A stretch of DNA of 64,000 nt from Paraspadella gotoi (taxonomy: Eukaryota > Animalia > Chaetognatha): the NCBI GenBank assembly GCA_051294375.1, contig JBJCIZ010000239.1, positions 6,743,545-6,807,544 of the forward strand, written 5' to 3'. Position 1 is the first letter of the stretch. Every line of letters begins with the position of its first letter. This document shows, piece after piece, positions 1 to 49,334 of the stretch. Under the pieces are notes generated by a model. It searched no databases. It was not told the origin of the DNA and was given only the letters and a program-made list of their open reading frames with translations. Made by a program: the position numbers and the translations under genes.

Positions 1-2
1 CG

Positions 3-224
3 GAGAAACCTTGCGGCAACTGCGGGGAAATGAAGTGGTCGCGGTGCAGCATGCTGCGGGAAAAAGAAGGCCCGGTGCTGGAGAACGAGATCCTGCTGCT
101 GCGCGGCGAGGAAAGGGGCTTCGTCGGCGCCGACGGAGGCGTGACGGCGGCGCAGCGGCTGCTGAAGCAGAAACGAAAAGGCACGGCCATCGAGGAAGCG
201 GAAGTCGAGTCTAAAACTTTTTAA
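3..224 (+). CDS. MCM10: MCM10 replication initiation factor, last coding exon only (gene runs off the left edge)
   Basis: The frame from position 3 reads EKPCGNCGEMKWSRCSMLREKEGPVLENEILLLRGEERGFV. This matches the metazoan MCM10 C-terminal zinc-binding tail as recalled (human ...HCSNCGLYKWERDGMLKEKTGPKIGGETLLPRGEEHAKFL). Stop TAA at 222-224 overlaps an AATAAA (224-229). Confidence 0.85.
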   Translation, partial: EKPCGNCGEMKWSRCSMLREKEGPVLENEILLLRGEERGFVGADGGVTAAQRLLKQKRKGTAIEEAEVESKTF

Positions 225-423
225 ATAAAAACAATTTTTTTTCCGTCGTTCATTTTCTGACGGGGCTTTTGGGTTTTTTAACGTTTTTTCCTGCGTCTTA
301 ATCATGAATTATCATGATTTATGGCGATTTCTGTCGTTCGTTAGACCCTTTTTTATTAACTGTTATGATTTTATTTCTTTTTTTTTTAAGTTTTTTCCTG
401 CCTTGTTATAAAACCGAGTGGCC

Positions 424-3400
424 ATGTCTTCGTCGCCCGCCCGCGATGCCCCATCAGAGTTGATGGAGATGGAGGGTGATTTGGGGTTAAACTCGGACCT
501 CCTCGAGCCCCCGTCGGAGCTCGTCGCACCTTCGAGCCCCATCGCGATCCCGCCCTCGGAACTGGGACCGCCAGTCGGGTAAGCGGGTTTTATTTTTGTT
601 TATGGGGTGTGGTCTGTCGGGGATGAAGTTTAGACTTTCTTAGTTTTGATATTGGTAAGTAGTCAAGGTATGAATTACTACTGGGTGTTGTTCTGGCTTA
701 TTGGTTCTTATTTTTTTATAAAACGCCACCTTTTATCGGTTTTTTTAATTACTGCCAGTTCGTCTATGAACCAAGAGCCAAAAAAAAGAGGTTATTTTGG
801 TCTCAAACTCTCCATTTTAAGCCTTAATGTAATGACCCCCCCTCACCTTTGCCCCGTCTCCTCTCCACACCCTCGCATCAGTTTTCCCCCTCGGCGCCAA
901 ACCGCTCCTCGCTCCGACCGCGTGCCCACCTCCGAACTGGACCTCAGTTCCCCGCTTCTCTACGGGACGCCGTCCTCGAACAAGTCGGTGGGCGGATCCG
1001 GCGGCGGGGAGACGCCGTTGCGGTTGAGGAGCGACTTGGGGAATCAAAGGACGTTGCGCCAAGTCAATCTCGCGCCCTCGTCCGATCGGGAGGGAACGGG
1101 TGAGATATATAGGGACGACGGGGTTGAAGGGGGGGAGGTTTACTGTTGTTTTTAACGCCTTCTCTCACTATCTTTTTATTAGTCGTTTTGTTTTTTGTTT
1201 TTTTTTCCGAAGCTTCATCAGCGCATAGTATAAATATAAATATAAAATAATGAAGAGAAGAATTTTATCATCGTGTCTCTTCTCTTCATGAATGAGAATA
1301 AAATTAAAATATAAGCGATAATAATTATATATAAAAAAAATATCCCTTCTTCCGCCTCCATCGATCTTCAGAACCTTCCTCCGACGGACACGTCCCTCCG
1401 TCCACCGACGCCCGCGACGCGCCGACGGAGCCGCCCTCGGCCGGCGACGCCGCGCAGCAGATCGTCATTTGGGGAACGGATGTCAACGTCGCTCAGTGCA
1501 AGGACAAATTCAGACAATTCATTCTTAGGTAAAAGGGATTAAATATATTTATTTTTTATTAAGGAAATTCACGATGTCTAAGTCTCGTCTGTATTTCCCC
1601 CTTTTTTTTTCTTTACGTATTTAATTGTTCATTTAAATTTAATTAGTGAAATTAAAACCCTCTTAAGATACATCGATCCCGATCTCGCTGACGACGAGAT
1701 CGAAGTGGGGATGAACAAGGACGAACCCGTCTACCTCCAAAAGCTCCACGAAATCTCCATCACGGGATCTCCTTACCTCCCCATCAACTGCAAGCATCTC
1801 AAGGATTTCGACGCGGATTTAAACCGGCAGCTCGTCTCTTATCCGCAGGTTCGTGGTGAGAACAGGCTGCTTTCACCTTGTCTTTTTTATACTTTTTACA
1901 GCTACAGGTATATAGCGATTGTTGATAGAGAAAAAGAGAGAAAAAGAGAAATAGAAATTAAGAAAGAATTGAATGAATGAATGAAAGAAAAATAAATCAA
2001 GAGAGAAATTGTAAAAGAATAGACGAAACGAATGCAAGAAAGTATGGTGGACTAAAATCCACCAACCGTTCATCAGCGGCCATTGGTGCCGGAGGCAAGT
2101 CATTCGCCTCCCAACCCAAAGGTCCGGGGTTCTAGCCCGGTGGTCGTCTGGCAGTTAAGAGGGACGGGGCGCTTAACCCGCCTGTAACACGGTGTTACAG
2201 CCTGATCCGAAGCTCAGGGACTGCTTATATTGAACGGTTCTGTCATTAACACTTATCAATAATTACGGTCTCTTCAAAAGTTATTGTTTAAAAAAGAACG
2301 AAAGTTAGAAAGAAGAAAGAAAGAAATCAAGAAAAAAAAAATTCCTTAAACAAGCAAAGAATTTAAATATAAAAAACCCCAGGAGGTGATACCGACCTTC
2401 GACATGGCCGTCAACGAGATCTTCTTCGCCCGATATCCTGACTCGGCGCTCGAGCACCAGATCCTCGTCCGCACCTTCAACGTGGACAAGACGATGAACA
2501 TGAGGTCCCTCAACCCAGAGGACATCGACCAGCTCATCACCATATCCGGTTTGAGAAAGAGGGAAACTTGAAATGCCATAATAAATTGTGAGAATGAAAT
2601 GTCTTGAGAATAAATATTGCGCTTTTAAAAAATCAAAGTAGTCTCTCATCATAATATTATTGTTATATTATTTTATGAAATTTGTACGACCAATATAAAA
2701 AAGCCATTTATTTAATAAATAAGCTATCTTGGCCCTGACTTTGGACAGGCTTTAGTGGTTTAAGGCCTTTTTCACTCTTACATGATAATCATCATTAATC
2801 ATTCAACTTGCCTCTAAACTAATCTAAGTACGCATTCAACTCTCTCATAAGAGCCAATCTCGTTCCATCCGGAGTTCGATTAATCCGATATTGTTTTCGC
2901 CAGGTATGGTTATCCGCACTTCGTCTTTGATCCCCGAAATGCGAGAGGCCTTCTTCAAGTGCGCCGTCTGCTCTCACTCTACATCCGTCGAGATCAACCG
3001 GTACACGGCAACACGCCCCCCCTTCCCCCAACCCACCTGCGTTTTGCGACGTCGAATCGGATTTTGTTGATCCTAACAATAACATAACATAAACTAACAT
3101 AACAGTAACATAATCTTAATTCATAGGTAGTTCATAACTTCATAGCTTCTTCCTACCAAAAGTTGTATCTAGTTTCGGAAAGCGTTTGTGTTTGTCAATC
3201 TGATGATATTTCCTGGTTTTCAATTTCAACGCTCTTACCTTATTTCCCCACCCGCACACTCAGCGGCCGAATCGCGGAGCCGTCCGTGTGCCCCCACTGC
3301 AACACCAACTTCTCCTACGCCCTCATCCACAACCGATCCCACTTTTCGGACAAACAGATGATCAAACTGCAGGAGTCGCCGGACGACATGCCGGCCGGGC

Positions 3401-6284
3401 AGACGCCGCACACCGTCGTCGTCTACGCGCACAATGACCTCGTCGACTCGGTGCAGCCGGGTAAGAGAATACCGAGTTTTTCACCAGATTGCATCCTCGA
3501 TTTTGCTTATGGACATGCTAGTCGCATCAATCGCTTAAACCAACAGGCGACCGCGTCACGGTTACCGGCATCTATCGTGCCACGCCCCTCCGTGTTAATC
3601 CCAAGCAGCGTAACGTCAAGTCCGTCTACAAGACCTACATCGATGCCATTCACTTTCGTCGGACGCAGCAGGATCGATTGCGCGAGCTGGAGAACGCATC
3701 GGACAAGGAGGGGTAACGAGAAGAGCCGGTCGATGATGACTCGTGTGGTAATCACTATCACTTCTTTAACTTTCCCTTCTCCCATTTTTCAGCAAAAGCC
3801 TCTACATCCCCGAGGAGAGAATCGATCGGGTCAAGAAGCTGGCGCAACTCCCGGACATCTACGAACGCCTCGCCGCCGCCCTCGCGCCCTCCATCTACGA
3901 AAACGACGACATCAAGAAGGGAATTTTGCTTCAGCTCTTTGGCGGAACGAGGAAGGACTTCTCCGCCACCGGTCACAGCAACTTTAGATCTGAAGTCAAC
4001 ATTCTTCTCTGCGGAGATCCAGGTCGGTATCTTAATCTCAAAAGTCGAGACAGAGGTGAGATATAGGCTCAGATCTTTAGCCAGTCGACATTTACTTACA
4101 TTCGAATCCCTCTATCAGGCACGTCCAAGTCTCAACTGCTCCAGTACGTCTTCAAACTCGTCCCCCGAGCTCAGTACACCTCAGGGAAGGGATCCTCCGC
4201 AGTTGGTCTCACCGCCTACGTAACCAAAGATCCCGAGACGAAGCAGCTCTGCCTGCAGACTGGGGCGCTGGTCCTGGCCGACAACGGCGTTTGCTGCATC
4301 GACGAGTTCGACAAGATGAACGACAGCACGAGGTTCTTGTCGGCGAATGGTTGAACCATCTGCAACACGAATTGATTTTGAATAAATTATTATGTGCAAG
4401 GGAAATGGCGGAGATCTTCTATGAAGGGGTTTCTCACCAACTGGTCTTTTGACTAAAAGTGACCGCCTCCTTCAGTGACGAGGATTGAACTCGGGACGCA
4501 TGGTTGAGACGAGATGATTTCGCCCGCTCAGTCATTGAGAGGAGGCTTCGTCTGAGGACGGACAATGGCGGCTTTAAGTCGTATCGCCATGCTGTCACTT
4601 TTTAAATGACCTGAGTAAATAACAATTCATATTATTCTTACTGCTCCCTCCCTTCCCGTTTTCTGCTCAGGTCTGTCCTCCACGAGGTGATGGAACAGCA
4701 GACTCTTTCCATCGCCAAGGCGGGGATCATTTGTTCCCTCAACGCGCGGACGTCCGTTTTGGCGGCGGCGAATCCCGTCGATTCTCAGTGGAACAAGAAC
4801 AAGACGATCATCGAGAATCTGCAGCTGCCGCACACGTTGCTCTCCAGATTCGATCTTATCTTTTTGATTCTCGATCCGCAGGTTCGTTTGAGACCAGACG
4901 AATTCGACTGCGAAAGTGACTGAAAAAATAATGAAACGATTAAATTGTTGCTTGAAGAAAGAAGTTGGTTTCAATATATGTTTCAGTTTATGTTTATTGA
5001 CCTTGTGGCTAATCCTAAAAAAATTCGCATACCCTATAACTTGGTGAAACTCGTCCTTTTGGCTTGGACTGTACTCGTTCACCAACTGTGAGTTCCGGGT
5101 CGCGCTGGTTAAGTTGATGGTGTCGGCATAAACACGCCATTGACATGGGGTGGTCACTGCAGATCCATGACTCACACCCCGGGCATCTCACAATTCTCCC
5201 CGTTGCCATAACACACACACACACACTCTCTCTCTGCACTACTTCCTCGCCCCCCCCCCCAGGACGAGCTGTTCGATCGACGCCTGGCCAATCATCTCGT
5301 CTCCCTCTACCACTCCGACTCGGGTGAGTCCGAGCTCGACCAGCAGCTCCTCGACCTCAACATCCTCAAGGACTACATTCTCTACGCGAAAACGTTCGTG
5401 GAGCCGAAGCTGAGCGAGGAGGCGGGGCAGTCGCTCATTCAGACATACGTGGAGATGAGGAAGACGGGATCTGGGAGAGGGCAGGTGTGTGAGGAGGAGG
5501 AAAAATAAAGAGCGAAATTGATGATCATTATTGACAATGAAGTAATTTTATTATTCGAATCACAAAAAAACAAATCATATTAATGTAATTCACATGTTTA
5601 TCGAAAGTTTGTCTTCTTGGCTAGTTAGATTTCATTGTATGGGTTTATCACTACATCGTATGAGGTTAAGGCTGCCAATTATTTCATTGGACATTGTTTC
5701 AGGTGAGCGCCTATCCCCGCCAACTGGAATCGCTGATCCGCCTTTCGGAAGCGCACGCCAAAGTCCGTCTCTCTCAGGTCGTGGAACAGATCGACGTCGA
5801 CGAAGCCTACAGGTTCGCTTTGCGGGGTTTTCGTTTATTCGTTCAATTCACTAATTATTACTAATAATGTTTTTTATTTTCGCTAAAAAGGCTATACCGG
5901 GAGGCGTTGAAGCAGGCGGCCGTGGATCCGTCGTCGGGAAAAGTCGACATTTCTATCCTCACTACAGGATTAAGCAGCGGAAACCGGAAGAAGCGGGCGC
6001 AGGTTTTTCTTTAAATATATAATATTTATGATTACACTAATTTTACATATATCATTAAATAAAGCTCTCTCCCTCAGCTGAAGGAGGAAGTGTGGAAATT
6101 GATCCAAGGAAAGGGAAAAGTGACGTCGCTCAACCTCCGCCGACTCCACGAGGAAATGAAGGCCAACTCGGACGTGATGATCCCGCGGGAACTCTTCGAG
6201 GATGTCGTCAAGGATTTGGAAGACGAGGGAAAGATCATCCGGACCGGACAGTCCCTCCGGCCCTGCGCCCCCTCGTCCGCTTGA
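424..6284 (+). CDS. MCM4: DNA replication licensing factor MCM4, ~16 exons
   Basis: Exons splice at GT-AG sites in phase where checked (e.g. 424-578 to 882-1099). Features: S/P-rich N-terminus with [21 protein letters not shown], zinc finger (FFKCAVC...CPHC), [25 protein letters not shown]4-type Walker [12 protein letters not shown], Walker [10 protein letters not shown], arginine finger [27 protein letters not shown] and a C-terminal winged helix. Confidence 0.97.
2041..2286 (+). mobile_element. tRNA-derived SINE-like interspersed repeat (family A) in an MCM4 intron
   Basis: Closely similar copy at 39752-39989. tRNA-like head at ~2076-2147 (GCGGCCA...TGGTCGT acceptor-like stem, TGGTGCCGGAGG A-box-like, GGTTCTAGCCC B-box-like), followed by several hairpins. 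Confidence 0.65.
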
Positions 6285-6290
6285 AGGAGG

Positions 6291-6330
<40 letters not shown>

Positions 6331-6532
6331 AAGTGCCATGGAACCGATTTTAATTTTTTCGAATTTCCCGTACATTCATTCCCTTTATACATTCTTTTTT
6401 ACGAGCTTCTTTTGGTACACTGTTTACAGTTCGTTATGTTTTGGTTCTTAAAAAAATATATTTTCGTTAAATAGTTTTATGAAATGTTTCTTTTTACGTA
6501 AAGCCTTGTTCAGTTATATCGCGCGTCAAAAG

Positions 6533-9500
6533 ATGTCGCTCGATTCGTTTTTAAAGAAAAAGGGGGACGGGACTTCGAGTCTCGGCGATAAACAAAAGAC
6601 CAAAGTTCGAACGGAACCGCAAGTGACTAAAAACGTCCCTTGGGTCGAGAAGTACCGTCCAAAGGTGAGCCGAGTGGGAAGGGAAGGGAAGAAAGGCCAC
6701 ATTCGATATTTAAAAAAAAACATTAAAAGAGTTTGAAATTAATTTTCAAATTCTTCTAATCATTACACAGCGAAACGAAAGGATTACACCACAATGTCTA
6801 AAAAAACATTAAAAAATGACTTCCTTTTGATTTGTTTTCTCTTTCCAGACCATTTCGGATGTGGCGCACCAGGAAGAAGTCGTCAACGTGCTCCGTTCAA
6901 CCTTGGAGAAAGGATCTGATCTCCCCAACCTTTTGTTTTACGGTCCGCCAGGAACGGGGAAGACCTCGACGATCCTAGCGGCGGCGAGGGAAATCTTCGG
7001 ACCCGAAATGTATCGGTCAAGGACCCTCGAGCTCAACGCCTCCGACGAAAGGGGAATAGGTGATGAGAGAGAGAGAGAGAGAAAAGAGAAAAAGAAAGAA
7101 AGAAAGAGTATGAGATTTAGATATACTGTGCTACGTGATATTTGATTAATATATACAACTTGCATTTAATTTAATATAAAAAGAAAAAGAAGCATAATCA
7201 ATTAGTGAAACAGGTGTTACATTTAAACTCATTTCAACTCAGACAATTTCATCGAAACTTGATTTCCAGCATAATTATTTATCATAATTCGATTTTCTGA
7301 CATGATATAAGTGAATGCCCGACAAGATTGGGCGGGCGGACCGACAAAGTGAATTATAGACTAAAAACTGTCTTAATATCTAAAATCGATTTCTTTCAGA
7401 ATTTAGATATATTAGCAATAACGAGGGAAAAAATATCCCCCTATTTCTCACCCCAACCCCTGCCAACCCCTTTCCCCCCCCCCTTTCCCCCCACGACGCC
7501 TTCAGACGTGATTCGCTCTAAAGTAAAGACTTTCGCTCAATTGACGGCCTCGGCTTCGTCCCTTCGTCGATCGGACGGAAAACCCGTCCCGCCTTTCAAG
7601 CTCATCATTTTGGACGAGGCGGACTCCATGACCAACAGCGCCCAGGTGATTGGAAACGCTTTGTCACCGCGTTTTTTGTTTTTTTTTTGGGGGGGGGAGG
7701 GGAGGCGGAAATATGGAGGGATCGGAGCGGGGTAGTTGAGTAGTTAACTTTCTTTGGGTGAACCCCGAGTACTAGCATTTTTGTTTTTTTTATATTCAAG
7801 AAAATAAATTTGGTATAGTAATTCATATAAACAAGAAGAGAGCTTCTTTTTATCACTTGACAGGCGGCGTTGAGACGAACCATGGAAAAGGAAAGTCGCA
7901 CGACGAGATTCTGTCTCCTTTGCAACTACGTCTCACGCATCATCGGACCTCTCACCTCCAGGTCTGGTTTTCATCCAACGTTTGATTTTCTTTGACATCG
8001 ACGAGTTTTCAATTTACTTTTCTTTACTTTTTACTTCCTTTGTCTTGTAATTAACTCTTTTCTATCCGTTTTTTTAACTTATCTTTCTTTCTTTCTTTCT
8101 TTCTTTCTCTCTCCTTTTTCTTTCTTTTTTCTCTCTTTTTCGTTACACCCCCCTTTTTTTCTCCCTATCCCCATTCTCCGATCTTCCCTCCCATCCTTTC
8201 CCATTTACTTTTGTCACGCCCCCTCCCCCCTGTTTCCTTTTCCTCCACCGACCAGATGCTCCAAGTTCCGCTTCAAGCCCGTCCCCGCCTCGGTGCTCGA
8301 GTCCCGTCTCTCTCTCATCGCGGTGGAGGAAGGGGTGGAGATCGAGCCTCGCGCCCTCACCGCCCTCGTCGAGGTCACGGAGGGCGACATGCGACAGGCC
8401 ATCACCACCCTTCAGAGCGCCGCCAGGCTCAAAGGTCAATTCAAATGTCGTTCCATGACTGTGTCGGCACCAATGTTGTATGTTAAATTAAATATATTTA
8501 CGTATATATTTTAACGTCCGTCTTTGTTACTTTTAGAAGCAGCGTGATCAATAATCGTTCTGTTAATTTTTTGTCTGCCTGTCTTATGATTAAAATCTTT
8601 AAAAATCATTTTTAAAAATTAATTAATTTCTCTCTAAAAATGACTTCAGGATCGTCGAAACCCTCTTCTCCCACGGCCTCCTCTTCCTCCGCCCCATCCC
8701 AAACCTCGGCCGTGACGGAAGAGGACATCCTCGAGATCTCCGGCGTAGTTCCCGCCAAACTCGTCGCCAAACTCCTCCACGCCTGCGCCTCTGACTCTTA
8801 CGAGAAGCTCGACGACGTCGTTCAGGAAATCATCAGGGAGGGTTACAGGTGAGGAGGCCGGCAGCGGGAAACGCTCGGGCCAGCTCATCCTTTGCTCTGT
8901 TTATGCAGGTTTGGACATCCGCGATTCGGTATCGCTTTTACCTCGTGATGCGATTTTGTCCACTAGTAGTAAAGGGGATCAAGAAAGAGATTTTCAGAAA
9001 GTAAATGCAACGTGTTACTGTATTACACGGGCTCTCTTTCCCGATGCCATGAACCCCTTTTTCTCATTGGTCAGTTCCGATGGTGATTCATCCAATTTAG
9101 GTTTATTTCACCCGAGTCACTGATCCGATTCGATTCCGATTCGATTCCGATCTGATTCCAATTCCATATCTTTGATGATATTTTAGTTGTACTTTAAATT
9201 ATAAACGTGATCATCGGGTAAAATAAAAAAGCGGCGCAAGACCTTGGAACTTGCTAGTTTTTTCTTGAAGAAAAACTTTCTACTTTCTACTTATCGATCA
9301 GGATTAACTCTCCCCTTAACCCATCCCTTAACCTTCTCTCAACCCATCCCACAAACAATCTTCCCCCTCCATTCAGCGCGGGTCAAGTCCTCAACCACCT
9401 CCACGATCAGACCCTCGCCTCCGACGAGATGAGCGACAAACAAAAGGCCATTATTTGCGAATCTCTGGCCGTCGGCGACAAGTGCCTCGCCGACGGCGCC

Positions 9501-9566
9501 GACGAGTATCTTCAACTCATGTCGGTCTGCTGCGCCGCCATGCAGACTCTCTGCCGCTCAGATTGA
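6533..9566 (+). CDS. RFC4: Replication factor C subunit 4 (p37; yeast Rfc2 orthologue), clamp loader
   Basis: Motifs: [16 protein letters not shown]...[103 protein letters not shown]. The C-terminal [29 protein letters not shown] points to RFC4 specifically. Confidence 0.96.
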
Positions 9567-9941
9567 GGCTCCCGACGTCTTCTCGTACCTTCTTTTTTTT
9601 AAGACGTGAACTGTTTGGCGGCGCTGATTAAACGTCTTAACGTTGCGTATCGCTTCGTGATAAAAAAAAAATTGTGATACCCAGTTGACGATTTTTTGTT
9701 TTAATTTTTTTTTGTTCACATCGGATAAAAAGAGAGAGGCAAACGAGAATGCTTATTAGCGGAGATATTTTTTTTTACTTGTTATTCTCCCACTGATCCT
9801 GTTATTTTTCTCCCCTTTTGTTATCTTAAACCTAAGTCCGCCTTATTTTTCATATTGGTACATACAATTTTAATTCATCTCCAGTTGCATTTTAATTGTC
9901 ATTGTGAACGGGATAGACCCTCTTCATTTCGACCTCCGACC

Positions 9942-11497
9942 ATGTCGTTTTTCGACGGAGGTGGTTTCGCCTCACCCGGCGGCGGCGGCGGCGGCGGTGG
10001 CTTCGGTTCGCCCAACGCTAGCGCTCAAAAGTCATCGCGCACGCGAGTGCAGAATCTCGTTCCCTGCACCATCAATCAAATCAGGACGGCCGGGAAGGAG
10101 GACGATCGCTTCATGATCGGCAGCATGGAACTCGGGCAGGTTGGCGATTTAGAATTTGTTCCACCAATGTAGAAATAATAATTCCCTTTCTCAAATCATT
10201 TTTCCCTTTTTGAGGTGGAGATCTTCGGCGTCATCATGGACTCCCGGGAGGCGACGACGAACATCACCTACATGATCAACGATTTCACCGGCGAAGACAT
10301 CGAGGTGCGCCATTGGCTGGAAGAAGCCGACGACGAGGCCGGCCCGACCAAGGAGTCGCAGATGCTGAAGAAGCACACCCTCGTCCGAGTCTGCGGCAAC
10401 GTCCGCGAGTTTCAGGGAACAAGGAATCTCGTCGCCTTTCGAATTTTTCCCGTTCACGACTACAACGAGTTTTCGTGTCACATCCTGGAAGTCATTCACA
10501 GGTCGTCAGGGTCTACTTTTGTCTGAGCCGTAATTGTTTTTGTTTTTTTACGTTGAATTGTATTTCATTACGGTGCAAGTCTAGAAAGTTATACTTTAAA
10601 CCTGTCTCTTATGGCAACAGCCGGGTTGCCTGTGATGCCCATTGGGATGGGGCATCTCACTGTTGGCTTTGGGGGCTTCCGACCCTCAGTGACGCCTCCA
10701 GTCACTGGCGCGGTTACCCTAGGACGGTCTCGCTTTGCCAACGCAGAGGGAAGTCGTTAGGACTGTGGATGGAACACTACACTTGGGATGGTGTGTTCCC
10801 CCTCTGAGCCAATGGATTTGGCTGAAGGATGGTGGACGTGAGGCGGTGTGAATATACCGCCACACTCTTTACTTAAATGCTCCTTAAGAAAGGAAAAAAA
10901 TATTGAAGCAGTAAATCGACTAACGATAATATGCAAATGAAATTAAACTCGATCCTTATTTTATTCTCAGTCAATTGATGCATCACGTGATGGAGAAAGG
11001 AATAGGCGGGTCCGTGGTCGTGGATGGTCCTTCTACGTCGGGTTATTCGACGATAGGATCGACTCCCGCCGGTGAGTATCAGTTATCTATTGACTGCAAT
11101 ATAATAAAAATAAATGTACATAAATGTAATCACTGTTTTATATTGATAATTGAATATTATTCACATTGTTATAAACAGGACCTGCTCCCGTGAGAGGTTT
11201 ACCGAAAAATCAGGAGGACGTTCTGAGAGCCATTCAACAGGTTAAATTCATGAAAAGGATTGATTTCAAAGATCCCCGCCCCCTGCTTTCGCTTACCCTC
11301 CACTCAACCCCCCCCCACCTCTCCCTTATAAACAGGGTTCGGTGACGGAGAGCGGTCCCTCGATCGCCGAGATCCGTTCCAGTCTCGGCAATCGACTCAG
11401 CGAGGCGCAGATTCGTGACGCCATCGAGTATCTCTCCGGCGAGGGTCACATCTACTCCACCCTCGACGAGGACCACTACCGCGCCACCGACGCCTAA
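9942..11497 (+). CDS. RPA2: Replication protein A 32-kDa subunit, 5 exons
   Basis: Gly/Ser-rich N-terminus (GGFASPGG...GFGSP), then QNLVPCTINQI, an OB fold (TNITYMINDFTG, VRVCGNVREFQGTRNLVAFRIFP...NEFSCHILEVIH) and a C-terminal winged helix (IRDAIEYLSGEGHIYSTLDEDHYRATDA*). Confidence 0.95.
10609..10864 (+). mobile_element. Hairpin-rich interspersed repeat (family B) in RPA2 intron 2
   Basis: Second copy with internal deletions at 16740-16946. Its 3' half forms the arms of the element at 36651-37051. It ends in the hairpin GGCGGT-gtgaatat-ACCGCC followed by ACA. Confidence 0.7.
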
Positions 11498-11670
11498 ATA
11501 TATCAACATTAAACAAACAAAAAAACCACATTCCGCCTCGCTCTGTTTTCGTTATCTTTTTTTTTTCTTTTGTCTTCGTCGAGTGCACGATGATGAACGT
11601 TAATTTTTTTAAAAACCATTTACTTGTTTGTTTGTTTTTATATACCAGTTTCTAAGCTGTTTCCTTAGTC

Positions 11671-14123: not shown

Positions 14124-14325
14124 AAGGGGAAAAACTCTCTTTTGGCTCCTGTCGCCACGTTGGTTTCCTCACGAAGTTGTTTTGTTATATACTACTATTA
14201 TTATTATTAGTCGTTACATGCTTTTTATTTTTATATACATAAGTTTACATTGGTTATTATTTTCATTTTTCTTTCAGGCATCTTAACTAGAATAAGTAGA
14301 TTCGTGGTTCGTCATCGTCATTATC

Positions 14326-15595
14326 ATGGCAAAGACGGAAAGGATCGATAATAACCTTTCATCTCCATCGCTCCTTCGCGACGTCGTCTCCTCACTCGAA
14401 TCCTGCGTCCAACGATTTCGGAGTCTGCAGGATTTCGTGGAATCTCCCGCCGCGTGCGCCGAGTGCTCCCCGATTGTGTTAAGAGATGTCGCTCGCCGGG
14501 TCCGGGATCTGGAATCTCTCGTCAACAGGGACGACTTTTTGCTGCGCTGCGAATGCGTCGGCCGAAGGGTCGTGCTGGACGCGCTGCCGCAGCGTGTCTT
14601 CAAGTCGCAGACGGACAAAGCGGCCCACTCGGAAATGTTTGTCAAGTCGGAGAAGAATTCGGCCTTTTTTGATATGAGCGACGATTGGGTCTCCCACGCT
14701 TTGACCGGTTCGTCTTTCGCGCGGGCCAATTTGCCGCCGCAGACAGCGCGGATAAAGGACGAGGTTTTTCCGGCGTCAAAGAAGCCGCGACCGGATCGAA
14801 ACTACAAAAACATAGTTTCGCCGGAGATACAGCGAGGGCACAGTTCCTTCGAACCGCAAGGTGACCTTCAGTCTGGAATGTAAAGTTATAAAGTGTCGCG
14901 TTTTTTGTGTTTTTTTTTTTTTTTTTTTTTGCACAGGACTGTAGGTCAGTTAAAATTTCAAAAAAATCTAAGATGAAACGCTTTTTGTTGTATTGTTGCT
15001 ACGGTTTGCTTCGAGTGGTTTGTACCATTCAATTTTCGTTTCTGTTGTTGTCGAAAGTGTTTTATCAATTGTTAGCATGTGGTTTTGTTTTGATTCTACA
15101 TATTATTCTGTATTTATTGTCCCTCCGCCGTCTACAGTTTCTACTTCGGCGAACAACATCCCGCAACGTCGGTTCCAGTCAATTCATTCCATGCCGCCAA
15201 CCCATTTTCCCCCTTTCTCTTTCTATTCGTCGTCTGGCCCGGCTGCATCCGTCTCCCAGGCGTCCTCCGCCCCGCCTGTGCCGGCCGGGGACTCTTCGAT
15301 AAAGCCGCTTCCCGTCATCTTCTTTCCCAATCGAAATCTGGCGAAACCGACGTCCTCTTTCAAGAAGCCCAACCTTCTCAAGGCCGCCAAGGCTCAAGCC
15401 CTCCGGCTCGTCAAGATGAGGGGAGGAGCGCCGAAATCCGGCGCGCGCCGTCCCGTTATCTCCGACGGGCGCTGCGGGAAACTGGGGGGCGCCGGAAATT
15501 CTGGCGACCGCATTGGTGGGCGTGGAGTGCCGACGCGGAATGGAGGAGTCGATTCGGGAAGAGAGAAGTCCTTGGCGAAACGCGAGAGAGACTGA
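14326..15595 (+). CDS. Unrecognised 2-exon gene (~330 aa) embedded in the replication gene cluster
   Basis: Exon 1 is 14326-14860 (donor CAAG|GTGACC, phase 1) and exon 2 is 15138-15595 (acceptor TCTACAG|TT, phase 1). They join in frame to 993 nt. Both have the same GC-rich exon composition as the neighbours, with an AT-rich intron between. No family recognised. Confidence 0.7.
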
Positions 15596-15990
15596 AGCGA
15601 AGGCCACGAGAGAGAAGAGGAGGAGGAGGAGGAAGAAGAGAGGGTTGAAAAAAAATATTTTGTTTTGCAATACAAACGTTTACTTACAAGTGAAATACGA
15701 TGTAAATACTAAAAGGCGGAATTTTAATTCATTTCAATTTCATCGTGATTACAAAAAAAAAATACTTTTTTTAAAAATTTGCTTCGTTATTCGCTGGAGT
15801 CGGTTTAATTTCGAAATCGCTCCGACATGCTTTTCCTCTTTTTCTTTCAGTCTGTTTGCCGATAGGCTTCCGTTTTTACATCGCCATGACTGCCAAGTAG
15901 CAGATTTTATTTTTGTTGCATCTCGCGTCCTTTTTCCTCCCCCATTTTATATTTTATCCCCGTATTCATTGCCATCTAAATAACGTCATC

Positions 15991-17578
15991 ATGCCCGAAA
16001 TACCGATGGACACTTCGGAAAACGAAGATCCAGGTTGGCGCCATTTCACTTTTAATTTTGTTAAATTCCGAATCTTTACGAAACTTTTATCCCCTTCCAC
16101 AACCCCTTCCACAACCGCGCAGCCGTCAAAAACTTGGACATCTCCACCCTCTCCGACGACCACGAGCTGCTCGAGGGCGAAGAGGTTATCGAGGTGGGCG
16201 AATATCGAATCAAGATCCCGCTCCCGCCCTCGCTGGTGGTCGCCTCCGGAAAGGAGGGCGAGCCGCGACTCGTCATCACTCATATTGAAAACGAGAATTT
16301 CAAGTCCTACGCCCAGGTGAGGTTCGAAAGAGCGGGAGTTGTCAATGAGGGGGAGTATGAAGAGAGGAGCCGGGACTTTTACTCGGGTGAGATTTAATTT
16401 GTCAAAAGCTAAACGATTAACGATTCCAACTGTTTGTTCGGTCAAGTTGAACTGACCATCCAAGTGGTTTTTATTGTCGTGTTCGTAGGTTGCTAACTTG
16501 TTGCCTTCAGAATTAATTATAGAAACGAGAGGAGTGAACTTTCTTTCTCCAACACACTCCCTTCATTCCACGTTCAAGGTCCAAAGCCTCGGACCCTTTC
16601 ACAAAAACTTCACCTGCATCGTGGGTCCGAATGGAAGCGGAAAGTCCAACGTGATCGACTCCATGCTCTTCGTCTTCGGCTACAGATCCGCCAAGGTCAA
16701 TTGGGATGGAAATGGATCGTCTGGATTTATAAGATAGGATTATGGCAACAGCCGGGTTGCCTGTGATGCCCATTGGGATGGGGCCTCTCACTGTTGTCTT
16801 TGGGGGCTTCCGACCCTCAGTGATGCCTCCTGTCACTGGCGCGGTTACTGCCAACGCAGAGGGAAGTCGTTAGGACTGTGGATGGAACACAATGCTTGGA
16901 TTGGCTGAACGATGGTGGATGTGAGGCGGTGTGAATATACCGCCACGGGATGGTTTTTCTGCATCAGATTTTGCGTTTTGGGCATCTCGATTGGGCACTT
17001 AAGTAATGGACGACCGAATAGTAATATTCTAAGAATCTAAGAGATATATCTCTAACAAATTCCCTCCCCCTTCTCAGATTCGCTGCAAAAAGACTTCCGT
17101 CCTCATTCACAGCAGCGACCAATACAGCAATCTAGACAATTGCAAAGTCACCGTCCACTTTGAAAAGATCATCGACACTGGGAGCAAAGAAAACGACTTC
17201 ACCGTCGTCCCCGATTCGCAGTTCAAGGTTTCAAGAGTTGGCTACAAGGATAATTCCAGCCGGTAGGTGTTGAGCGTTTTGTTGTACTATGTTGCGTTTT
17301 GTCGTGTGTTGTGTTCGTTGTATGTGTCTGTCCTCGCTCTCAATTTTTTTCTTCCTTTCTTTTTCTTTCCCACCTCAGGTACTTCATGAACGACCGACCG
17401 ACCACCTACAAGGAGATCTCTCTTCACCTTCGCCAACAGGGCATCGATTTGGACCACAACCGCTTCCTAATCCTTCAGGGAGAGGTGGAGTCCATCGCCC
17501 TCATGAAGTCCAAAGGCGCCACGCCCCACGAGGAGGGCATGCTCGAGTTTCTCGAGGACATCATCGGCAGCTCCAGGT

Positions 17579-17656
<78 letters not shown>

Positions 17657-18346
17657 TGGTTAAAAAAAAAGTCACTTCAATAAAATTATTCTGATCTGAA
17701 CAGTCGGTTGCCACATTAATCATTAAAAACAAAACTTTTAAGTTGTTCCTACTATACATATTTATAACTGTATATATACTTATATATTATATATAATATT
17801 ATATATATATTATATTATTATATTATATTATATTATATTATATTATTATATTATTATATATTCGCAATCGCCTCGGCAGGTTTTTGTCGCCGATCGGAAA
17901 ATTAGAGAAGCTTCTCGAAGAGGCTGAACACGGAGAGGGGAGAGAAGATGAATCGAGTCAAGTTGGCGGAGAGGGACAAGAACGAACTCAAAGGTGAGAG
18001 TTTGGACTAATTATGCCTTTTAATGTATGTGATATATGATTTTATTTAATACATTATCAATCGTTACTTGCCGTTTTTTGAATTCTTTCCTTTTGTATTT
18101 GTAGTGTCTGAAAGTGTATTTTCTTTTAATCTGTCTTCTGCCGTCCCACCCACCCAACATCCCCAGGCGCCCGCGACGAGGCCATCCTTTACCTTCGCAC
18201 CCAAAACGCCTCACGCGAGTCTACAACAAACTCTATCAGGTGGTGAAGAACGAGACAGAGTTGGAAGTCCGCGCCACCGAGGAGAACGTGGCCGCCGCCA
18301 AGGAACGCGCTCGGCCTGTTCTCGAGGAGTTGGAGAAGATCGGTTC

Positions 18347-18410
<64 letters not shown>

Positions 18411-21400
18411 AGAGAAAAAAAACATCATCTATGAAGCATCGATAAAAAATTGAAGCATCCTTGAAACATCTCAATGAATAAATAAAGGATGCATGAGGCA
18501 TCTCAATAAATAATTAAAGCATCCTTGAAGCATCTCAGGTTTACCTTATATTTATTAGAATTACAGGAGTTATGGACTTTAAAACGTCAGTGTAAAATAC
18601 CGACCGACAAGTGGAGCAACTGACCAAAAAAATCCAAACTCCCTCTCCACCCTTTTACATTTTCAGCGAAGGAGAAGAAGGAGGAAGAGTCGGGCTACGA
18701 GTCGGCCGTCCTCGACTTCAAGCGGTTGGAGGCGGAGATCGAGGATTTCCAGAAGAAGTACGAGGCCTTCGAGAAGGAGGACATCGAGAAGCGAGAGGAC
18801 TACAAGCAGTTGAAGCTCCAGGGGAAGAAGAAAGCGCAAGACTTGGAGCGGGAGGAGAGAGAAGGAAGGAGCTCGAAGCAGAGCCGGAGATCAAGTAAGA
18901 GAGAGAGAGATAGATACCGTTGGTTTAAGATCACGCGTTGGAGGAAATTATAAAGCTCAATTATACAGGGTCCACTGACCTGGACTTTTTTTTGCTTTTT
19001 TTTCCTCAGAGCCAAGGAGCTGGAGGAGCTGAAAAAGCTCTTGGAGCGACACCAGGCTGACAAACGGCACGCGGAGGAAGTGCTGGAGCGAGCGATGGCT
19101 AGCATCCGGGACGACACGGCGCCCATCGTGGCGGAAAAGGAGAAGAAAGAAAACGAGCTCGTGCCTTTCAAGCAGCGCGTCAACCAAGCCAAGTGAGGAA
19201 AGGACTTTCTGAGATTAGATGGGTTAAATTTTAAAACAAGAAATTATGTATCTGCAATGTAAAGTTTGTATACTTAATGAAAAAATATGTCCAAAATCGC
19301 TGTCGACCCAAATTACTCCAGAAAATATGAAATTTTGTACTGGGTCACTACTCACTAGTTACGTATTTAAACAAAAAGAATTATCGAAGAAGTTCTAAAA
19401 CAAGTTACAGTTAAGTTACGAGTTTCCTATGGCCTCCACCTTTCTCTAAACTTCGGAGCTAACCAAGCATGGTCTTAAAAAAATCTCGTATCATTTTGTT
19501 TTTTAAAGTTAACTAATAAATTTGACGTATTTGTAACTTATCTCAGGTCCAAACTGACAATCGCCGAAGATGAACGAAATCTCTTCATCTCCAACCAGGA
19601 AAAGGAAAAGACGCGGCTCCAGTCTATAGAAGCACAACTGGAGCAGCTGGCCGTCAAACTTGAAGATCGAGGGCGCGAGCTCCACCAGCTGGAACGAGAT
19701 ATCCCCGCCGAACAAAAGGATTGCGCCGCTGCCGAGAACGATTTGAAGACCGTTCAGGTTTCATTGATAGTTTTTGAACTTGAAAATAAAATAAATGTAA
19801 AATAAGTAAAAAACAACAAGGCTCACGAGAATGCGCAACTCTGTTTCCCCCCTTTCCCCATCCTTTGATTTTCTTTCTCAGGAAAAAGAGGCGAGACTCA
19901 CCGCGCAGGTGCAGACAGAGCGTGGACAAGTGGAGCAAGCTCGCAGCGCCTTGCAGTCCACCACCAGTCGAAAGGGCGTCCTAGGCGCCTTGATGGAGCA
20001 AAAGAGAAAAGGGCATTTGCCCGGCATCTACGGGCGGCTCGGCGACTTGGGAGCCATCGACGACAAGTACGTTGTCAATTTAGCCCTTTTGTTCGCACGT
20101 ATTTTGTATCGCTTGTTCGTTTGCCCCATTCCTTTCCCCCCATTTCCATCGGTTGATTGGCTGCGATTTTTGAATCACCCTCCTCCCATTTCCACCAATC
20201 AAGGTACGACGTGGCCATCTCCACCTGCTGCGGCCCGCTTGACAACGTCGTCGTCGATACCGTCGAGACGGCGCAGCAATGCATCTCCTATCTCAAGTCT
20301 TCCGGCGTCGGCTCCGCAACTTTTCTTTGCCTCGACAAACAACAACGCTTCGCCGAAAAAGCTCGCGAGCCCAGGCGTGCCTGGCCCGAGGACGTGCCCA
20401 GACTCTTCGATCTGGTCAGTGTCAACAATGAGGAACTGCTGCCGGCCTTTTACTACGCGCTCACCGACACCCTGGTAAGAAAATTTGTTAGGGGGGGGCG
20501 CGAGGGGTTTAATGAAAAGTCTATGATGATATGTGAAGAATGTAGGCTTTGTGAGNNNNNNNNNNTTTAAAAGTTAAATCCTTCAGAGTTAGGTAGCGTA
20601 TACTAAATTTTGAATTATTATTTCGGATTGACCTGACCCGAAAATCCTTAGTCTGTATCAAAGAAACATGAACATTACACAATCATCAATCCAAACCGGA
20701 CATACATCTTCCTTTTCACTCCATCCGTCCCGTCCATCCAGGTGGCCAAAGACATGGACCAAGCTACCCGGATTGCTTACGGAGCGCGACGATACCGAGT
20801 GGTGACTCTCGACGGAGGAATCATCGAGGCATCCGGCGCCATGTCGGGTCAGTAGATCCAAGTGGGCGGGGCGTGGAGTAAAGGATGTTTTAAGATTGTT
20901 CTAATTGATTAAGTGTCAACGATATCTTGTAAAATCTCACCGGAAGAAAGATTGTCATGTAATGTAAGATAACAGTTGTTGCATTGTAACTTATCTCTGT
21001 TCAAAGACTCCCTTTTATTTTTTCCTCAGGTGGCGGGAAACGCGTGATTCGCGGTCGAATGGGGAATAAAGTGGTCGAGGAGGAAGAGGTGAGGTTTTTG
21101 CTACTCACCGTTCTTTCCGAGCTCGTCTCAATGCGAGCCCGTCAATGCCGTCTTACTTTATCTTTTTTCATCCAGAGTTCTCCCGACCTTTCTTCAAATC
21201 ATGTTTTCCCCTTTTCTCTTCCTTCTTCTGCTTTTTCTCTCTATTTTCTTTCTTTCCCTCATTTCTCCTTTCCTTTCCCTCCTTTTTACTTCTCACCTTT
21301 TATTTTTTCTCTTTTTCCACAATTTCCTCCCCTTTCTCTTTTCTTCCCTTTCCTTTATTTTTTCCTCATTCTTTTTGTTCCTTACCTCCTTTTCCTCTCC

Positions 21401-24058
21401 TTTCCCTTCTCCCTTCCACCCAGATCTCTCCCGACGAGCTTCGAGAGATGCAGTCCCACCTAGAGAGGATAACGGAGGAAGCGCGAGCCTGTCATCATCG
21501 ACGCACGCAACTTGAGACGAGCATCGAAACCTTGAGGACGAGCGTGCGCTCCAAGGAACTCACGCGGAAGAAGCACGAGAACGAGGTCAAGTCGTTGCGC
21601 GCTACGGAACCCAAGCTGCGTCAGCAGATCGAAGATTGCAAGGCGCAAATCAAGGTGCGTGGGTCAAAGCCAAGGGGGTTAATTTGATTAATCTTTGTTA
21701 CTCTTAATAATTATTTAAAATAAAGCAAAACTTAATCCATTTCAGAAATTGGCCCCCGACTCGAACCAGCTGGCCCGCCTGGAAGGTCTCGTCGAGAAAT
21801 ACCGGGCCCAGCACGAGGCCGAGGTGGCGGCCTCGGCCGATCTCGAGGCCCGGGTCAAGTCGCTCGCCGCCAAGCTCGAGGAGGCCGTCGAGGGGCGCGT
21901 CAAAGGCCCGCGGGGTCAGGTGGAGCGTCTCGAGAAGCAGATGCAGAAGACGAACGGGGACATCACCAAGACCAACGTGGCCATCAAGACGGCGGGCAGG
22001 AACATCGCCAAGGCCGTGGAGAAGATCGAGTCTTTGAAGAAAGAGATCGTCGAGACAAAGGAGAAGGGTGAGGGGGGGTGAAAAAAAGTACAATCGGTCA
22101 ATTGTCAATTATGCCCTTGGTCTTTTCACTTGATACTTCATTGATTAGTAGATAAACGGAAGGTTGTTTGAAGTGGTAGAGTCACGTGATCATCTGAAAC
22201 TGCACCCACAAGAAAAGTCACTGTCGGTTCTTGTTTTTTAATACAATTTTTTAACAAATAATAATAACAATAACTCCCCCCCCCAAAAAAAAAGTATATA
22301 TATCTAACTGATGCGTCGGTCCATCATCTCTATCTCTCTATGAGTAAAGTCAAAGGAAAAGTCCAAAAAAATAGGGAAACAAAGTATATTCTCTGAGAGG
22401 GAGCTCTCGAGTCGAAGTAGAACCCAAGACAGAACTAAAATCTCTCTCTTTGCTCCTTCTTCTGTCGTCGCTCGATGAGGAGGTAGTGAAAGGGAGGAAA
22501 AGAGGCGGAAGAGGAAGAAGAAAAAAGGTGTCTCGAGCGAGAATGGGGAATCCAGTGAAATCTACTCATCCCTCTATCTGTATATATAATTATGAAATTG
22601 GTACAACCAATATAAAAATTATCCATTCATTTAATATATATATAATTATATATTTCCTTATCCAGAATCTCGTATGAAGGCTGACTTGGAAGAGTTGACG
22701 GAGAAAGCGCGGGATTTGATCGAGAAGAAGGAGGAGATGGTCGAGTCGCGCAAAGGGATGAAGTCGAAGGTGCAGAGGATGAAGTCGGCCATCGACGCTT
22801 TGGAGAAGCGAGAGTCGGATCTCAAGACCGCGAGACAGGTTTACATCAGAACCTTTTTTTTTTTACATTTGATTGTGTTTATTACATGTATATTTTATTA
22901 TGATTATTTTCATCTGCAGGAATAAGTTTGATTTGTTTGTGACAACGATTTGTTTTATTTTCATCGTAATCTTTTACTCGTTATTTTTTTTTCTCAGTCT
23001 ATAGTAGAAAATAGTCGACTTTTTGTTTCCTCTCGTTTGTTTACAAATTTTATTTTTAATTAATAAGCAATAAAACATGACTTTGAAGCGACTATATGAG
23101 AATTGAACCAAAGTATTAGCCTCCTGAAAACGAGTCCATTTTTTTCCTTTTTCCCCTTACTTTCTCTTTTCTCTCCCCTTTCTTATTCTCCCTTTTTTCT
23201 TTCCCTTTTTTCTTTCCCTTTTTCCTCGCCCTCCTCCCTCACCCTCACCCCCCCCTCCCTCCCTCGCCCCTCCTCCCTCACCACTCCCTCCCCTCGCCCC
23301 TCCTCCACGCCCGCTCATCCCTCACCTTTCCTCCTCGCCCCTCATTCCTCACCCTTCTCCCTCCCCCTCCTCTCTCCCTCCCCTCCCTCCACCCCTCCTC
23401 CGTTTCCCAGACGGTGACTCACGAGTTAGAAGTCGTCGAGGGAGAACTCTCCTCCTTAAAGGAAAAGTTAAAGATGAACGGACGCCTTCTGTCTGGACTC
23501 AAACTCAACTTCATCGACCCGCAGATGTCGCAGTCTGTTCGACCAGGCGAGAAGCTTTGGTTGGGCAGGAAGAGAATGATGACAATGAAGGGGCTGGACT
23601 TATTGAATCGGCCTTTGAGATGATCTTTTGACTTTTAATAATAATTAATTTGTTATTTAACAGAGGCCGACGACGAAGACGACTGCACCGAGTTGAAGGA
23701 ATACGCCGTCGACGAACTCGATACCTTTGATATCAAAGTGAGACGAAGAAAAAAGTTTTTTTTACTTAATATCTCTCTCTATCTCACATTTTTAAACTTT
23801 TCATATCTCTCTCTCTTCCACTTCTTTTCCCCTTCCGGGTCAGACCCTGGACGCAGAGGTGGTGGCCAACAAACAACGCCTCGAGCAGATGCATCCCAAC
23901 ATGGCCGCCATCGAGGAGTACAAGAAGAAGAACCAGAGCTACATACTCCGCATGGATGAATACATGAAGTGCACGAGCCGGCGGGATTTCGTCGGGAAAA
24001 ATGGGAGGAGTTAAAGAAGCCGAGCCTCGACGAGTTTTTAACGGGTGTGTGTGTGTGA

Positions 24059-24133
<75 letters not shown>

Positions 24134-25143
24134 GGGGGGTGGTCTTAAGCTCGACAGGTCTGATCGAGGCCGGACACATATGATGAGAGAAGTGATAAGT
24201 GAGTCTCCCTCCCACGATTTTAAATTTCATACTTCTCTCTCCTCTTTCCCCCCCCCTTTCCCTTCTCTCTTCTCCCACTTCCGTCTCTCTTCTTTCTTCC
24301 CCTCCCTTTTTTTCCTTCCCCTTCCCTTCCCTCCCTCTTTTCCTCCCTAACTCTCCCTTCCCCTTCCCCTCCCCTTTCTCTCCTCTCTCTTCCCTCTCCA
24401 CCCTAATAGGCTTCGAGACTATCAACTCCAAGTTGAAGGAGATGTACCAAACCATCACCCTGGGCGGCGACGCCGAACTCGAGCTCGAAGACTCCCTCGA
24501 CCCCTTCGCCGAAGGGGTGAGCTTCAGCGTGCGGCCGCCGAAGAAGACGTGGAAGAAGATCACCAACTTGTCGGGCGGAGAAAAGACGCTCTCCTCCTTG
24601 GCGCTTGTCTTCGCCCTTCATCACTACAAGCCGACCCCCTTCTACGTCATGGACGAGATCGACGCCGCGCTCGACTTCAAGAACGTCTCCATCGTCGGAC
24701 ACTACATCAAGGTGCTCGTCGAATGTCTCTTCCGAGCCTCGCCGGGGGAAATGGTCGGGCGGGCTTCTCGGGACGATCGATTTCGGTTGGGGATTTTTTT
24801 TCTCTTTTTTTTTATATTTGAAACGTGGAACGTTTTTTTTCCTCGACCTGCTTTTCGCATCTCCTCTCTCTCTCTCTTTCTCTCTCTCTTTCTTCAACAT
24901 TCTTTCTCTCCCCCTTCTTTCCAGGAAAGAACGAGCAACGCTCAATTCATCATCATCAGTCTCCGGCACAACATGTTCGAGTTGGCCAATCGTCTCGTCG
25001 GCATCTACAAAACCTTCAACTGCACCAAGTCGGTCGCGCTCTCGCTGGAGGATGAAGAGCGTCCCAACGAAGAGCCTCTGGAGGAAGAGCGAGGGACGCC
25101 GGCGGAAAGACTCGTCGAAGAAGCGGGCGTAACGCCAGCTTGA
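15991..25143 (+). CDS. SMC4: Structural maintenance of chromosomes 4 (condensin subunit), multi-exon, with apparent single-base indels in this assembly
   Basis: Motifs: [73 protein letters not shown], hinge [24 protein letters not shown] and [23 protein letters not shown]-terminal [66 protein letters not shown] and AQFIIISLR. Confidence 0.96.
16740..16946 (+). mobile_element. Family B repeat copy in an SMC4 intron
   Basis: Direct similarity to 10609-10864 (TTATGGCAACAGCCGGGTTGCCTGTGATGCCC...GTGAATATACCGCCAC). Confidence 0.7.
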
Positions 25144-35700: not shown

Positions 35701-35806
35701 TTACTTTGAAATAACCAGTCTCCGGTGTCATTCTGTCGTTTTTTCCAAGCTTCTTCCCAAGCCTCTCTTAAAAAAAGTTTTATTTAAAAAAAACTTTTTT
35801 TTCCGC
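26210..35806. repeat. Tandem direct duplication of ~4.8 kb (26210-30995 and 31021-35806), probably an assembly artefact
   Basis: Identical ORFs recur at a constant offset of 4811 (27633/32444, 29029/33840). Both copies end on the same base (...TTTTCCGC) just before a 25-N gap. Only the first ~500 bp differ, mostly by indels. Confidence 0.9.
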
Positions 35807-35955
35807 NNNNNNNNNNNNNNNNNNNNNNNNNTTATTAATTATATGTCCATTCCATAGGCAGCAAAAAAAATCAATCTTTTCATCACTCCACCCTAGTGAA
35901 CACCCACTTTTAACAATTTGCCTTATCGGCCAAATATGTTGGGATATAAAACAAG

Positions 35956-36985: not shown

Positions 36986-37016
<31 letters not shown>

Positions 37017-44073: not shown

Positions 44074-44133
<60 letters not shown>

Positions 44134-44583: not shown

Positions 44584-44631
<48 letters not shown>

Positions 44632-46924: not shown

Positions 46925-46960
<36 letters not shown>

Positions 46961-49293: not shown

Positions 49294-49334
<41 letters not shown>

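What the first reader, a model, noticed from the sequence alone, without database searches (positions are those of the whole stretch)
1..25143. Co-oriented 'replisome operon': MCM10-MCM4-RFC4-RPA2-PRIM1-(orphan)-SMC4
Seen in sequence: seven consecutive + strand genes with stop-to-start spacers of 199, 248, 375, 173, 202 and 395 bp. The other 39 kb of the window holds only about three genes and much repeat DNA. Established knowledge: six of the genes are unrelated families acting in S-phase and mitosis (helicase activator, helicase subunit, clamp loader, ssDNA-binding protein, primase, condensin), so tandem duplication cannot explain the cluster. These genes are dispersed in vertebrates. Known animal operons (nematodes, tunicates, flatworms, chaetognaths) are enriched for housekeeping genes but are rarely this pathway-pure. 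Inference: a bacterial-style, functionally coherent operon or selected co-regulation cluster that turns on the proliferation machinery from one promoter.
Basis: partly seen in the sequence, partly recalled or inferred. Interest (0 to 1): 0.93.

Follow-up and report, generated by a model that had tools for sequence, protein, structure and literature searches.

The report
An animal DNA-replication operon
Five unrelated DNA-replication genes, an unknown gene and a chromosome-condensation gene sit head-to-tail in a marine invertebrate genome, and RNA covers or abuts the gaps that could be tested, so they likely form one transcript cut up by leader trans-splicing: an animal operon unusually devoted to one pathway.

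Summary
The cluster is real. MCM10 (3' end only), MCM4, RFC4, RPA2, PRIM1, a 330-aa orphan and SMC4 lie on the + strand with spacers of 199, 248, 375, 173, 202 and 395 bp. In one public RNA-like run, a single contig has all 11 tested introns removed, crosses the RPA2/PRIM1 spacer, and by arithmetic starts in RFC4's last exon. It ends at 14276, on the A of a strong unpaired splice acceptor; the orphan's contig starts at 14278. [quoted passage not shown] No SL letters were seen, three junctions were not tested, short-read contigs do not prove single molecules, and the promoter lies outside the window. The host is probably a chaetognath (inferred), a phylum with known operons. The mechanism is therefore a known kind. 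What looks new is the content: five consecutive replisome genes, far beyond simple chance, and not found in my literature searches. SMC4 has at least four frame breaks (assembly error or decay, untested).

The parts
3..224 (+). MCM10, last coding exon (gene runs off the window start)
   Evidence: Pfam Mcm10 E=1.2e-16
424..6284 (+). MCM4, 15 exons, 880 aa
   Evidence: open frame; Pfam MCM; all 7 PDB hits are MCM4
6533..9566 (+). RFC4, 7 exons, 382 aa
   Evidence: best PDB hit human RFC4, 103 bits vs 58 for RFC5
9942..11497 (+). RPA2, 5 exons, 269 aa
   Evidence: Pfam RPA_C; 4 of 4 introns skipped in the RNA contig
11671..14123 (+). PRIM1, 8 exons, 442 aa
   Evidence: Pfam DNA_primase_S; 7 of 7 introns skipped in the RNA contig
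14326..15595 (+). Orphan gene, 2 exons (14326-14860, 15138-15595), 330 aa; helical N-terminus predicted at low confidence, rest likely disordered
   Evidence: RNA contig on exon 1 with one synonymous difference; codon score favours this frame of six in both exons; no homologue for exon 1 and no Pfam family for either exon
15991..25143 (+). SMC4, 22 exons, at least 4 frame breaks in this assembly
   Evidence: Pfam SMC_N and SMC_hinge; PDB SMC4
14258..14278 (+). Pyrimidine tract and AG (14276-14277): likely trans-splice acceptor and zero-gap cistron boundary
   Evidence: PRIM1-side contig ends 14276, orphan contig starts 14278; acceptor score 13.0, reached by 1 of 300 shuffles
15831..15851 (+). 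Strong acceptor 140 nt before the SMC4 ATG, predicted trans-splice site
   Evidence: score 11.0, reached by 5 of 300 shuffles; not tested with RNA; a donor-like site scoring 5.8 lies upstream at 15690
11498..11670 (+). RPA2/PRIM1 spacer, covered end to end by the spliced contig
   Evidence: one unbroken piece 11331-11784
9567..9941 (+). RFC4/RPA2 spacer, inferred to be covered by the same contig
   Evidence: the contig has 636 nt upstream of 10010; colinear start = 9374, the first base shared by RFC4 exon 6 and the intron end

Best explanation
Seven intron-containing genes, five of them consecutive replisome genes, lie head-to-tail and likely form one operon: RNA polymerase II would read them from a promoter upstream of the window, and spliced-leader trans-splicing would cut the precursor into single-gene mRNAs. 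Shown: gene order and identity, splicing of 11 of 11 tested introns, unbroken RNA cover of the RPA2/PRIM1 spacer, and RNA edges on both sides of one acceptor AG between PRIM1 and the orphan. Inferred: cover of the RFC4/RPA2 spacer, SL addition, 3' ends made at or near the next acceptor (Ciona-type), membership of MCM10, MCM4 and SMC4, the single promoter, and a chaetognath host. The grouping is likely kept by selection, because it would switch on helicase, clamp loader, ssDNA-binding protein, primase and condensin together in dividing or germline cells (untested).
For:: one 3,033-nt contig of run X1 skips all 4 RPA2 and all 7 PRIM1 introns, with lengths equal to my models, and has no break from 11331 to 11784; two mostly intronic bins have depth 0 and 4.1 against 234, so this is not genomic DNA. 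It ends at 14276 and the next contig starts at 14278; bin means are fully explained by these two records. The 636 extra 5' bases land on 9374, where spliced and unspliced RFC4 RNA would merge. The same architecture is published: poly(A) site abutting the acceptor in 19 of 19 mapped Ciona operons, with 3' ends sometimes 2-6 nt upstream (PMC1488885); 3 nt gap in the Spadella RPS14-PCNA operon (PMC2481426). In five of six spacers every upstream ATG lies 5' of a candidate acceptor and would be removed. No AATAAA lies wholly within 1,592 nt of spacer, against 1.6 per kb in introns. Host clues: RPA2 relatives at about 55-68% are unnamed, apparently marine-plankton transcriptome proteins, with named animals at about 33-41%; exon CpG o/e is 1.23, as expected without gene-body methylation, which P. 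gotoi lacks. 18% of P. gotoi genes are in operons.
Against: No SL or poly(A) letters were seen on any contig end listed (tables are truncated). A short-read contig across two genes does not show one molecule, as the tool warns; overlapping UTRs would give the same picture. One run, one study. Three of six junctions are untested. Acceptors before RFC4 and PRIM1 are no better than shuffles (196 and 150 of 300), those before MCM4 and RPA2 only modest (24 and 41 of 300). An AATAAA overlaps the MCM10 stop and ATTAAA follows the RFC4 and RPA2 stops, so ordinary 3' ends are possible there. One ATG (15886) lies 3' of the predicted SMC4 acceptor. Two spacers (375, 395 bp) exceed published operon cut-offs of 250 and 300 bp. 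A relative's PRIM1 contig (X2) has only 38 nt before its ATG and does not reach RPA2. No synteny evidence. The host phylum is not shown.
Confidence: 0.7

Rival explanations
1. The operon is real but its pathway purity is a by-product: operons collect housekeeping and germline genes, and a scan over many windows will meet a pure run now and then.
For: Operon genes dominate germline markers in P. gotoi. With a loose 200-gene class, 3,500 operon genes and 200 categories the expectation is 0.15-0.41 per genome. Ciona operon members are not tightly co-expressed.
Against: C. elegans operon genes are described as rarely related in function (PMC2776167).
Confidence: 0.15
2. The genes are packed and co-oriented but each has its own promoter inside the upstream gene's 3' end; overlapping UTRs join the contigs.
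For: No SL seen; weak acceptors before RFC4 and PRIM1; poly(A)-like hexamers after three stops; one E2F-like site in the RFC4/RPA2 spacer at 9614.
Against: The orphan RNA starts exactly after a pyrimidine-AG with no upstream exon attached, and PRIM1 RNA stops one base short of it. E2F-like sites are at chance level (21 vs 23.1 expected; 1 of 6 spacers) and DRE is absent (both motifs recalled).
Confidence: 0.1
3. RFC4-RPA2-PRIM1 persists as a spliced, stable polycistronic mRNA that is resolved late or partly, with acceptor strength setting stoichiometry.
For: The contig is fully spliced yet unbroken across the weak PRIM1 acceptor and cut at the strongest acceptor. An RPA2 relative (P0046) is recorded on a contig of up to 3,055 nt, whereas most are about 1,000-1,200 nt.
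Against: Assemblers clip short SL and poly(A) tips and can join resolved mRNAs through a small precursor pool (my knowledge of de Bruijn assembly); contig depth is flat by construction; most relatives' RPA2 contigs are single-gene length.
Confidence: 0.1
4. The order is an assembly artefact.
For: Frame breaks and an N gap in SMC4; no genome or DNA run was available.
Against: A spliced RNA contig reproduces the order RPA2-PRIM1 and, by arithmetic, RFC4-RPA2; the spacers hold no N and are not among the repeats found by self-comparison.
Confidence: 0.03

Closest known systems
Chaetognath operons (Spadella cephaloptera RPS14-PCNA, PMC2481426; Paraspadella gotoi genome, PMC12460157)
   Same: Co-oriented genes with short spacers, upstream 3' end abutting the downstream acceptor, a replication gene (PCNA) already known in an operon, up to nine genes per operon.
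   Different: Reported content is nitrogen and protein metabolism (ribosomal, ubiquitin, proteasome genes); 'DNA replication' occurs 0 times in the main text of the P. gotoi paper. Its operon spreadsheet could not be read and may list this or an orthologous operon.
Ciona intestinalis intercistron-less operons and C. elegans SL1-type operons (PMC1488885)
   Same: Zero-gap poly(A)/acceptor junction; AATAAA mostly absent (16 of 18 Ciona cases); unresolved dicistronic cDNAs occur.
   Different: Mostly two genes and not pathway-pure. Ciona has gene-body methylation (recalled), whereas exons here are not CpG-depleted.
C. elegans SL2 operons and flatworm operons (PMC2776167, PMC12582326)
   Same: Short spacers between co-oriented genes; in flatworms up to nine genes.
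   Different: SL2 operons keep an intercistronic gap, absent at PRIM1/orphan; C. elegans members are rarely related in function.
Prokaryotic replication gene clusters (recalled, not tested)
   Same: Functionally coherent replication genes in one unit.
   Different: No introns there and one mRNA is translated whole; the genes here are ordinary intron-rich eukaryotic orthologues, so this is convergence, not transfer.

Membership tests
SL-resolved animal operon | Adjacent co-oriented genes with short spacers | tested here: met
   173-395 bp stop-to-start; 4 of 6 are under 250 bp even with UTRs included
SL-resolved animal operon | RNA continuous across cistron boundaries | tested here: met
   RPA2/PRIM1 shown, RFC4/RPA2 inferred; contig-level only; 3 of 6 junctions not tested
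SL-resolved animal operon | Downstream mRNA begins at an unpaired splice acceptor | tested here: met
   orphan contig starts at 14278, right after the AG; 1 junction only
SL-resolved animal operon | Non-genomic spliced leader on downstream mRNAs | tested here: inconclusive
   no leader letters on listed contig ends; contigs can drop them; no raw reads held
SL-resolved animal operon | Single promoter upstream of the first gene | not testable with these tools
   window starts inside MCM10; no genome held
Intercistron-less (Ciona/SL1-type) operon | Upstream 3' end abuts the downstream acceptor | tested here: met
   14276 and 14278 at PRIM1/orphan; poly(A) itself not seen
Chaetognath genome | Chaetognath SL sequence or named chaetognath orthologues | tested here: inconclusive
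Bacterial-type operon | Intronless cistrons translated from one mRNA | tested here: not met
   all six complete genes have spliceosomal introns; RNA is discontinuous at PRIM1/orphan

The most novel reading that the evidence does not exclude
An animal lineage gathered its scattered replisome and condensin genes into one selected, pathway-specific operon, a single S-phase switch, with trans-splice acceptor strength tuning how much of each subunit is made; by position the orphan is an unrecognised replication or mitosis factor.
Probability: 0.4. Interest if true: 0.88.

Novelty: new variant of a known kind. Interest (0 to 1): 0.74.

Why it matters
Animal operons are usually read as by-products of trans-splicing that collect housekeeping or germline genes of unrelated function. 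A run of five replisome genes from five unrelated families plus condensin would be a clear case of functional clustering by selection in an animal, and makes a long-debated question (do animal operons co-regulate pathways?) testable at one locus. It also nominates an orphan protein as a candidate cell-cycle factor and suggests mining such operons by guilt of association.

Tried and rejected
No whole genome was held, so the upstream extent, copy number and a real permutation test were not possible. No listed run is on record as RNA; X1 behaves as RNA by its splice joints. RNA could be laid only on 10010-14890, so MCM10/MCM4, MCM4/RFC4, orphan/SMC4 and the SMC4 frame breaks remain open; X3 laid nothing (no proof of absence). 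A metagenome scan for RPA2 relatives found none. A scan with a PRIM1 exon gave 250 relatives, of which 80 loci were kept (46 of at least 5 kb); none is a close relative and 0 of 80 carry another cluster gene: no synteny support, and only a weak control on distant eukaryotes. Orphan: no hit in Pfam for either exon; for exon 1 only, none in the homologue search (313-2000 aa targets), the Atlas or 1.84 billion representatives; the single-sequence model had pLDDT 50, so no fold search was run. A single-exon orphan ending at 14883 and an 8-nt mini-exon were rejected because the contig leaves the genome at 14860 and the two-exon frame is open. Rfam found nothing in the window. E2F and DRE motifs are at chance level. 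Earlier scan findings: none returned. Horizontal transfer and tandem duplication were rejected: five unrelated families with ordinary introns.

Full report
Observation. Reading 1-27 kb and building models from coordinates gives seven + strand genes: the last exon of MCM10, complete MCM4 (880 aa), RFC4 (382 aa), RPA2 (269 aa), PRIM1 (442 aa), a two-exon orphan (330 aa) and SMC4. Spacers are 199, 248, 375, 173, 202 and 395 bp. Pfam confirms the families (24 segments scanned) and PDB sequence searches pick RFC4, MCM4 and SMC4 over their paralogues. SMC4 has frame breaks in four exons (17880-17993, 18167-18342, 18667-18894, 23844-24044), mostly near long GA tracts, one uncertain donor, and an N gap in an intron. 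Assembly error is my guess; decay is not excluded. After SMC4, no recognisable gene appears for about 10 kb (ORFs of at least 70 aa only).

RNA evidence. One run (X1) holds 59% of the sampled words of 5700-15690. Laid on 10010-14890, one 3,033-nt contig skips 11 of 11 modelled introns with the predicted lengths and runs without a break through the RPA2 stop, the 173-bp spacer and the PRIM1 start. Two mostly intronic bins have depth 0 and 4.1 against 234, so the cover is not genomic background. The contig carries 636 nt upstream of the laid stretch. At its 3' end the contig crosses the PRIM1 stop and ends at 14276, the A of the AG at 14276-14277. The orphan's contig (depth 72) starts at 14278 with no letters before it. 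The bin mean of 100.8 is reproduced by these two records alone. That AG is the best acceptor of any spacer (score 13.0; 1 of 300 shuffles reach it), and the best donor-like site in that spacer scores 3.9, below the tenth percentile of true donors and downstream of the AG. Limits: one run of one study, contigs rather than reads, truncated tables, no SL or poly(A) letters seen, and a contig across two genes does not show a single molecule.

Spacer anatomy. The spacers are T-rich (41% T). No AATAAA lies wholly inside them (0 in 1,592 nt; 20 in 12,470 nt of intron), but one overlaps the MCM10 stop and ATTAAA follows the RFC4 and RPA2 stops; one AATAAA lies about 445 nt after SMC4. Acceptors are strong before the orphan and SMC4 (1 and 5 of 300 shuffles), modest before MCM4 and RPA2 (24, 41) and unremarkable before RFC4 and PRIM1 (196, 150). 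E2F-like sites number 21 against 23.1 expected and DRE sites 0 (motifs recalled).

Host. RPA2's ten nearest relatives (77-82% over exon 2; best about 65-68% full length) are unnamed JGI and Logan proteins mostly on contigs of about 1 kb, which suggests transcriptomes; named animals of several phyla are at about 33-41%. Their marine-plankton origin is my inference from the sources. Housekeeping exons are not CpG-depleted (o/e 1.23). An unannotated plankton group without gene-body methylation and with zero-gap operons fits chaetognaths; I put this at about 75%. It is not shown.

Mechanism. Most likely a promoter upstream of MCM10 drives one precursor; introns are cis-spliced; SL trans-splicing at unpaired acceptors gives each downstream gene its cap, and at PRIM1/orphan the upstream 3' end forms at the same AG, as in Ciona and Spadella. 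The spliced contig is unbroken at the weak PRIM1 acceptor and cut at the strongest one, which hints that resolution differs by junction; assembly behaviour could also explain it. The Ciona paper notes that zero-gap junctions may make upstream and downstream mRNAs mutually exclusive per molecule and that members were not tightly co-expressed, a caution for the 'one switch' idea.

Is the purity beyond chance? With assumed class sizes, five of five neighbours from a 60-100-gene replisome class is expected 4e-9 to 6e-8 times per 20,000-gene genome, and 4e-6 to 6e-5 times among 3,500 operon genes; allowing 200 post-hoc categories gives 9e-4 to 1.2e-2, and a loose 200-gene class gives 0.41 (six of seven). 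The result is strong for a strict class and weak for a loose one, and the scan's many windows are not corrected for. No synteny was obtained: 0 of 80 distant PRIM1 loci carry another cluster gene and no close relative's DNA was found.

Orphan. It is transcribed (exon 1 laid), its codon score favours the annotated frame of six in both exons, GC3 is 0.67 against 0.71-0.78 for its neighbours, and the one RNA difference is synonymous. No homologue or family was found (the homologue searches used exon 1 only). The model is low-confidence, with helices over residues 14-86. A cell-cycle role is inferred from position only.

Literature. Seen: PMC12460157 (passages, sections 9 and 10, term search of 3 supplementary PDFs; the operon spreadsheet was too large to read and may bear on novelty); PMC2481426 (passages, section 13); PMC1488885 (passages, sections 14 and 17); PMC2776167 and PMC12582326 (passages). 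Nine searches returned no listing that describes an animal replisome operon; other listed papers were seen as titles and abstract starts only, and the library lacks most subscription journals.

Verdict. The operon reading has RNA support at three of six junctions (two shown, one inferred) and belongs to a known kind of system. Its pathway-pure content appears undescribed and is the part worth following: new variant of a known kind, interest 0.74.

Noticed in passing
window 10609-10864, 16740-16950, 36650-37050: MITE-like repeat with terminal inverted repeats in RPA2 and SMC4 introns; summed contig depth in run X1 is 31,000-50,000 against 234 for exons, so it is very abundant in the genome or in RNA.
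   Followed up: partly
run X2, PRIM1 contig matching window 11699-11787: The relative's contig has 38 nt before the ATG, 2 shown and 36 hidden; 36 nt is the length of the published chaetognath spliced leaders. May be coincidence; the letters were not visible.
   Followed up: no
protein P0046: An RPA2 relative recorded on a Logan contig of up to 3,055 nt, close to the 3,033-nt multi-gene contig here; could be the same read-through in another species. DNA not obtainable.
   Followed up: no
window 17880-24044: At least four frame breaks in SMC4, mostly near GA microsatellites, with splice sites largely intact.
   Followed up: partly
window 35950-38588 (+): Multi-exon gene with a weak LicD (fukutin-like) match, E=0.0055, below Pfam's cut-off.
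   Followed up: partly
window about 38860-50130 (-): Exon-like GC-rich ORFs of a probable large minus-strand gene with no convincing Pfam match.
   Followed up: partly
window 50063-50554 (+) and about 58600-60600 (-): Transposase-like HTH fragment, and exons of an NDRG-family gene.
   Followed up: no
window 2039-2285 and 39750-39989: A 250-bp dispersed repeat, 86% alike, one copy in an MCM4 intron.
   Followed up: no
window 15886-15900: A four-codon upstream ORF between the predicted SMC4 acceptor and its ATG.
   Followed up: no
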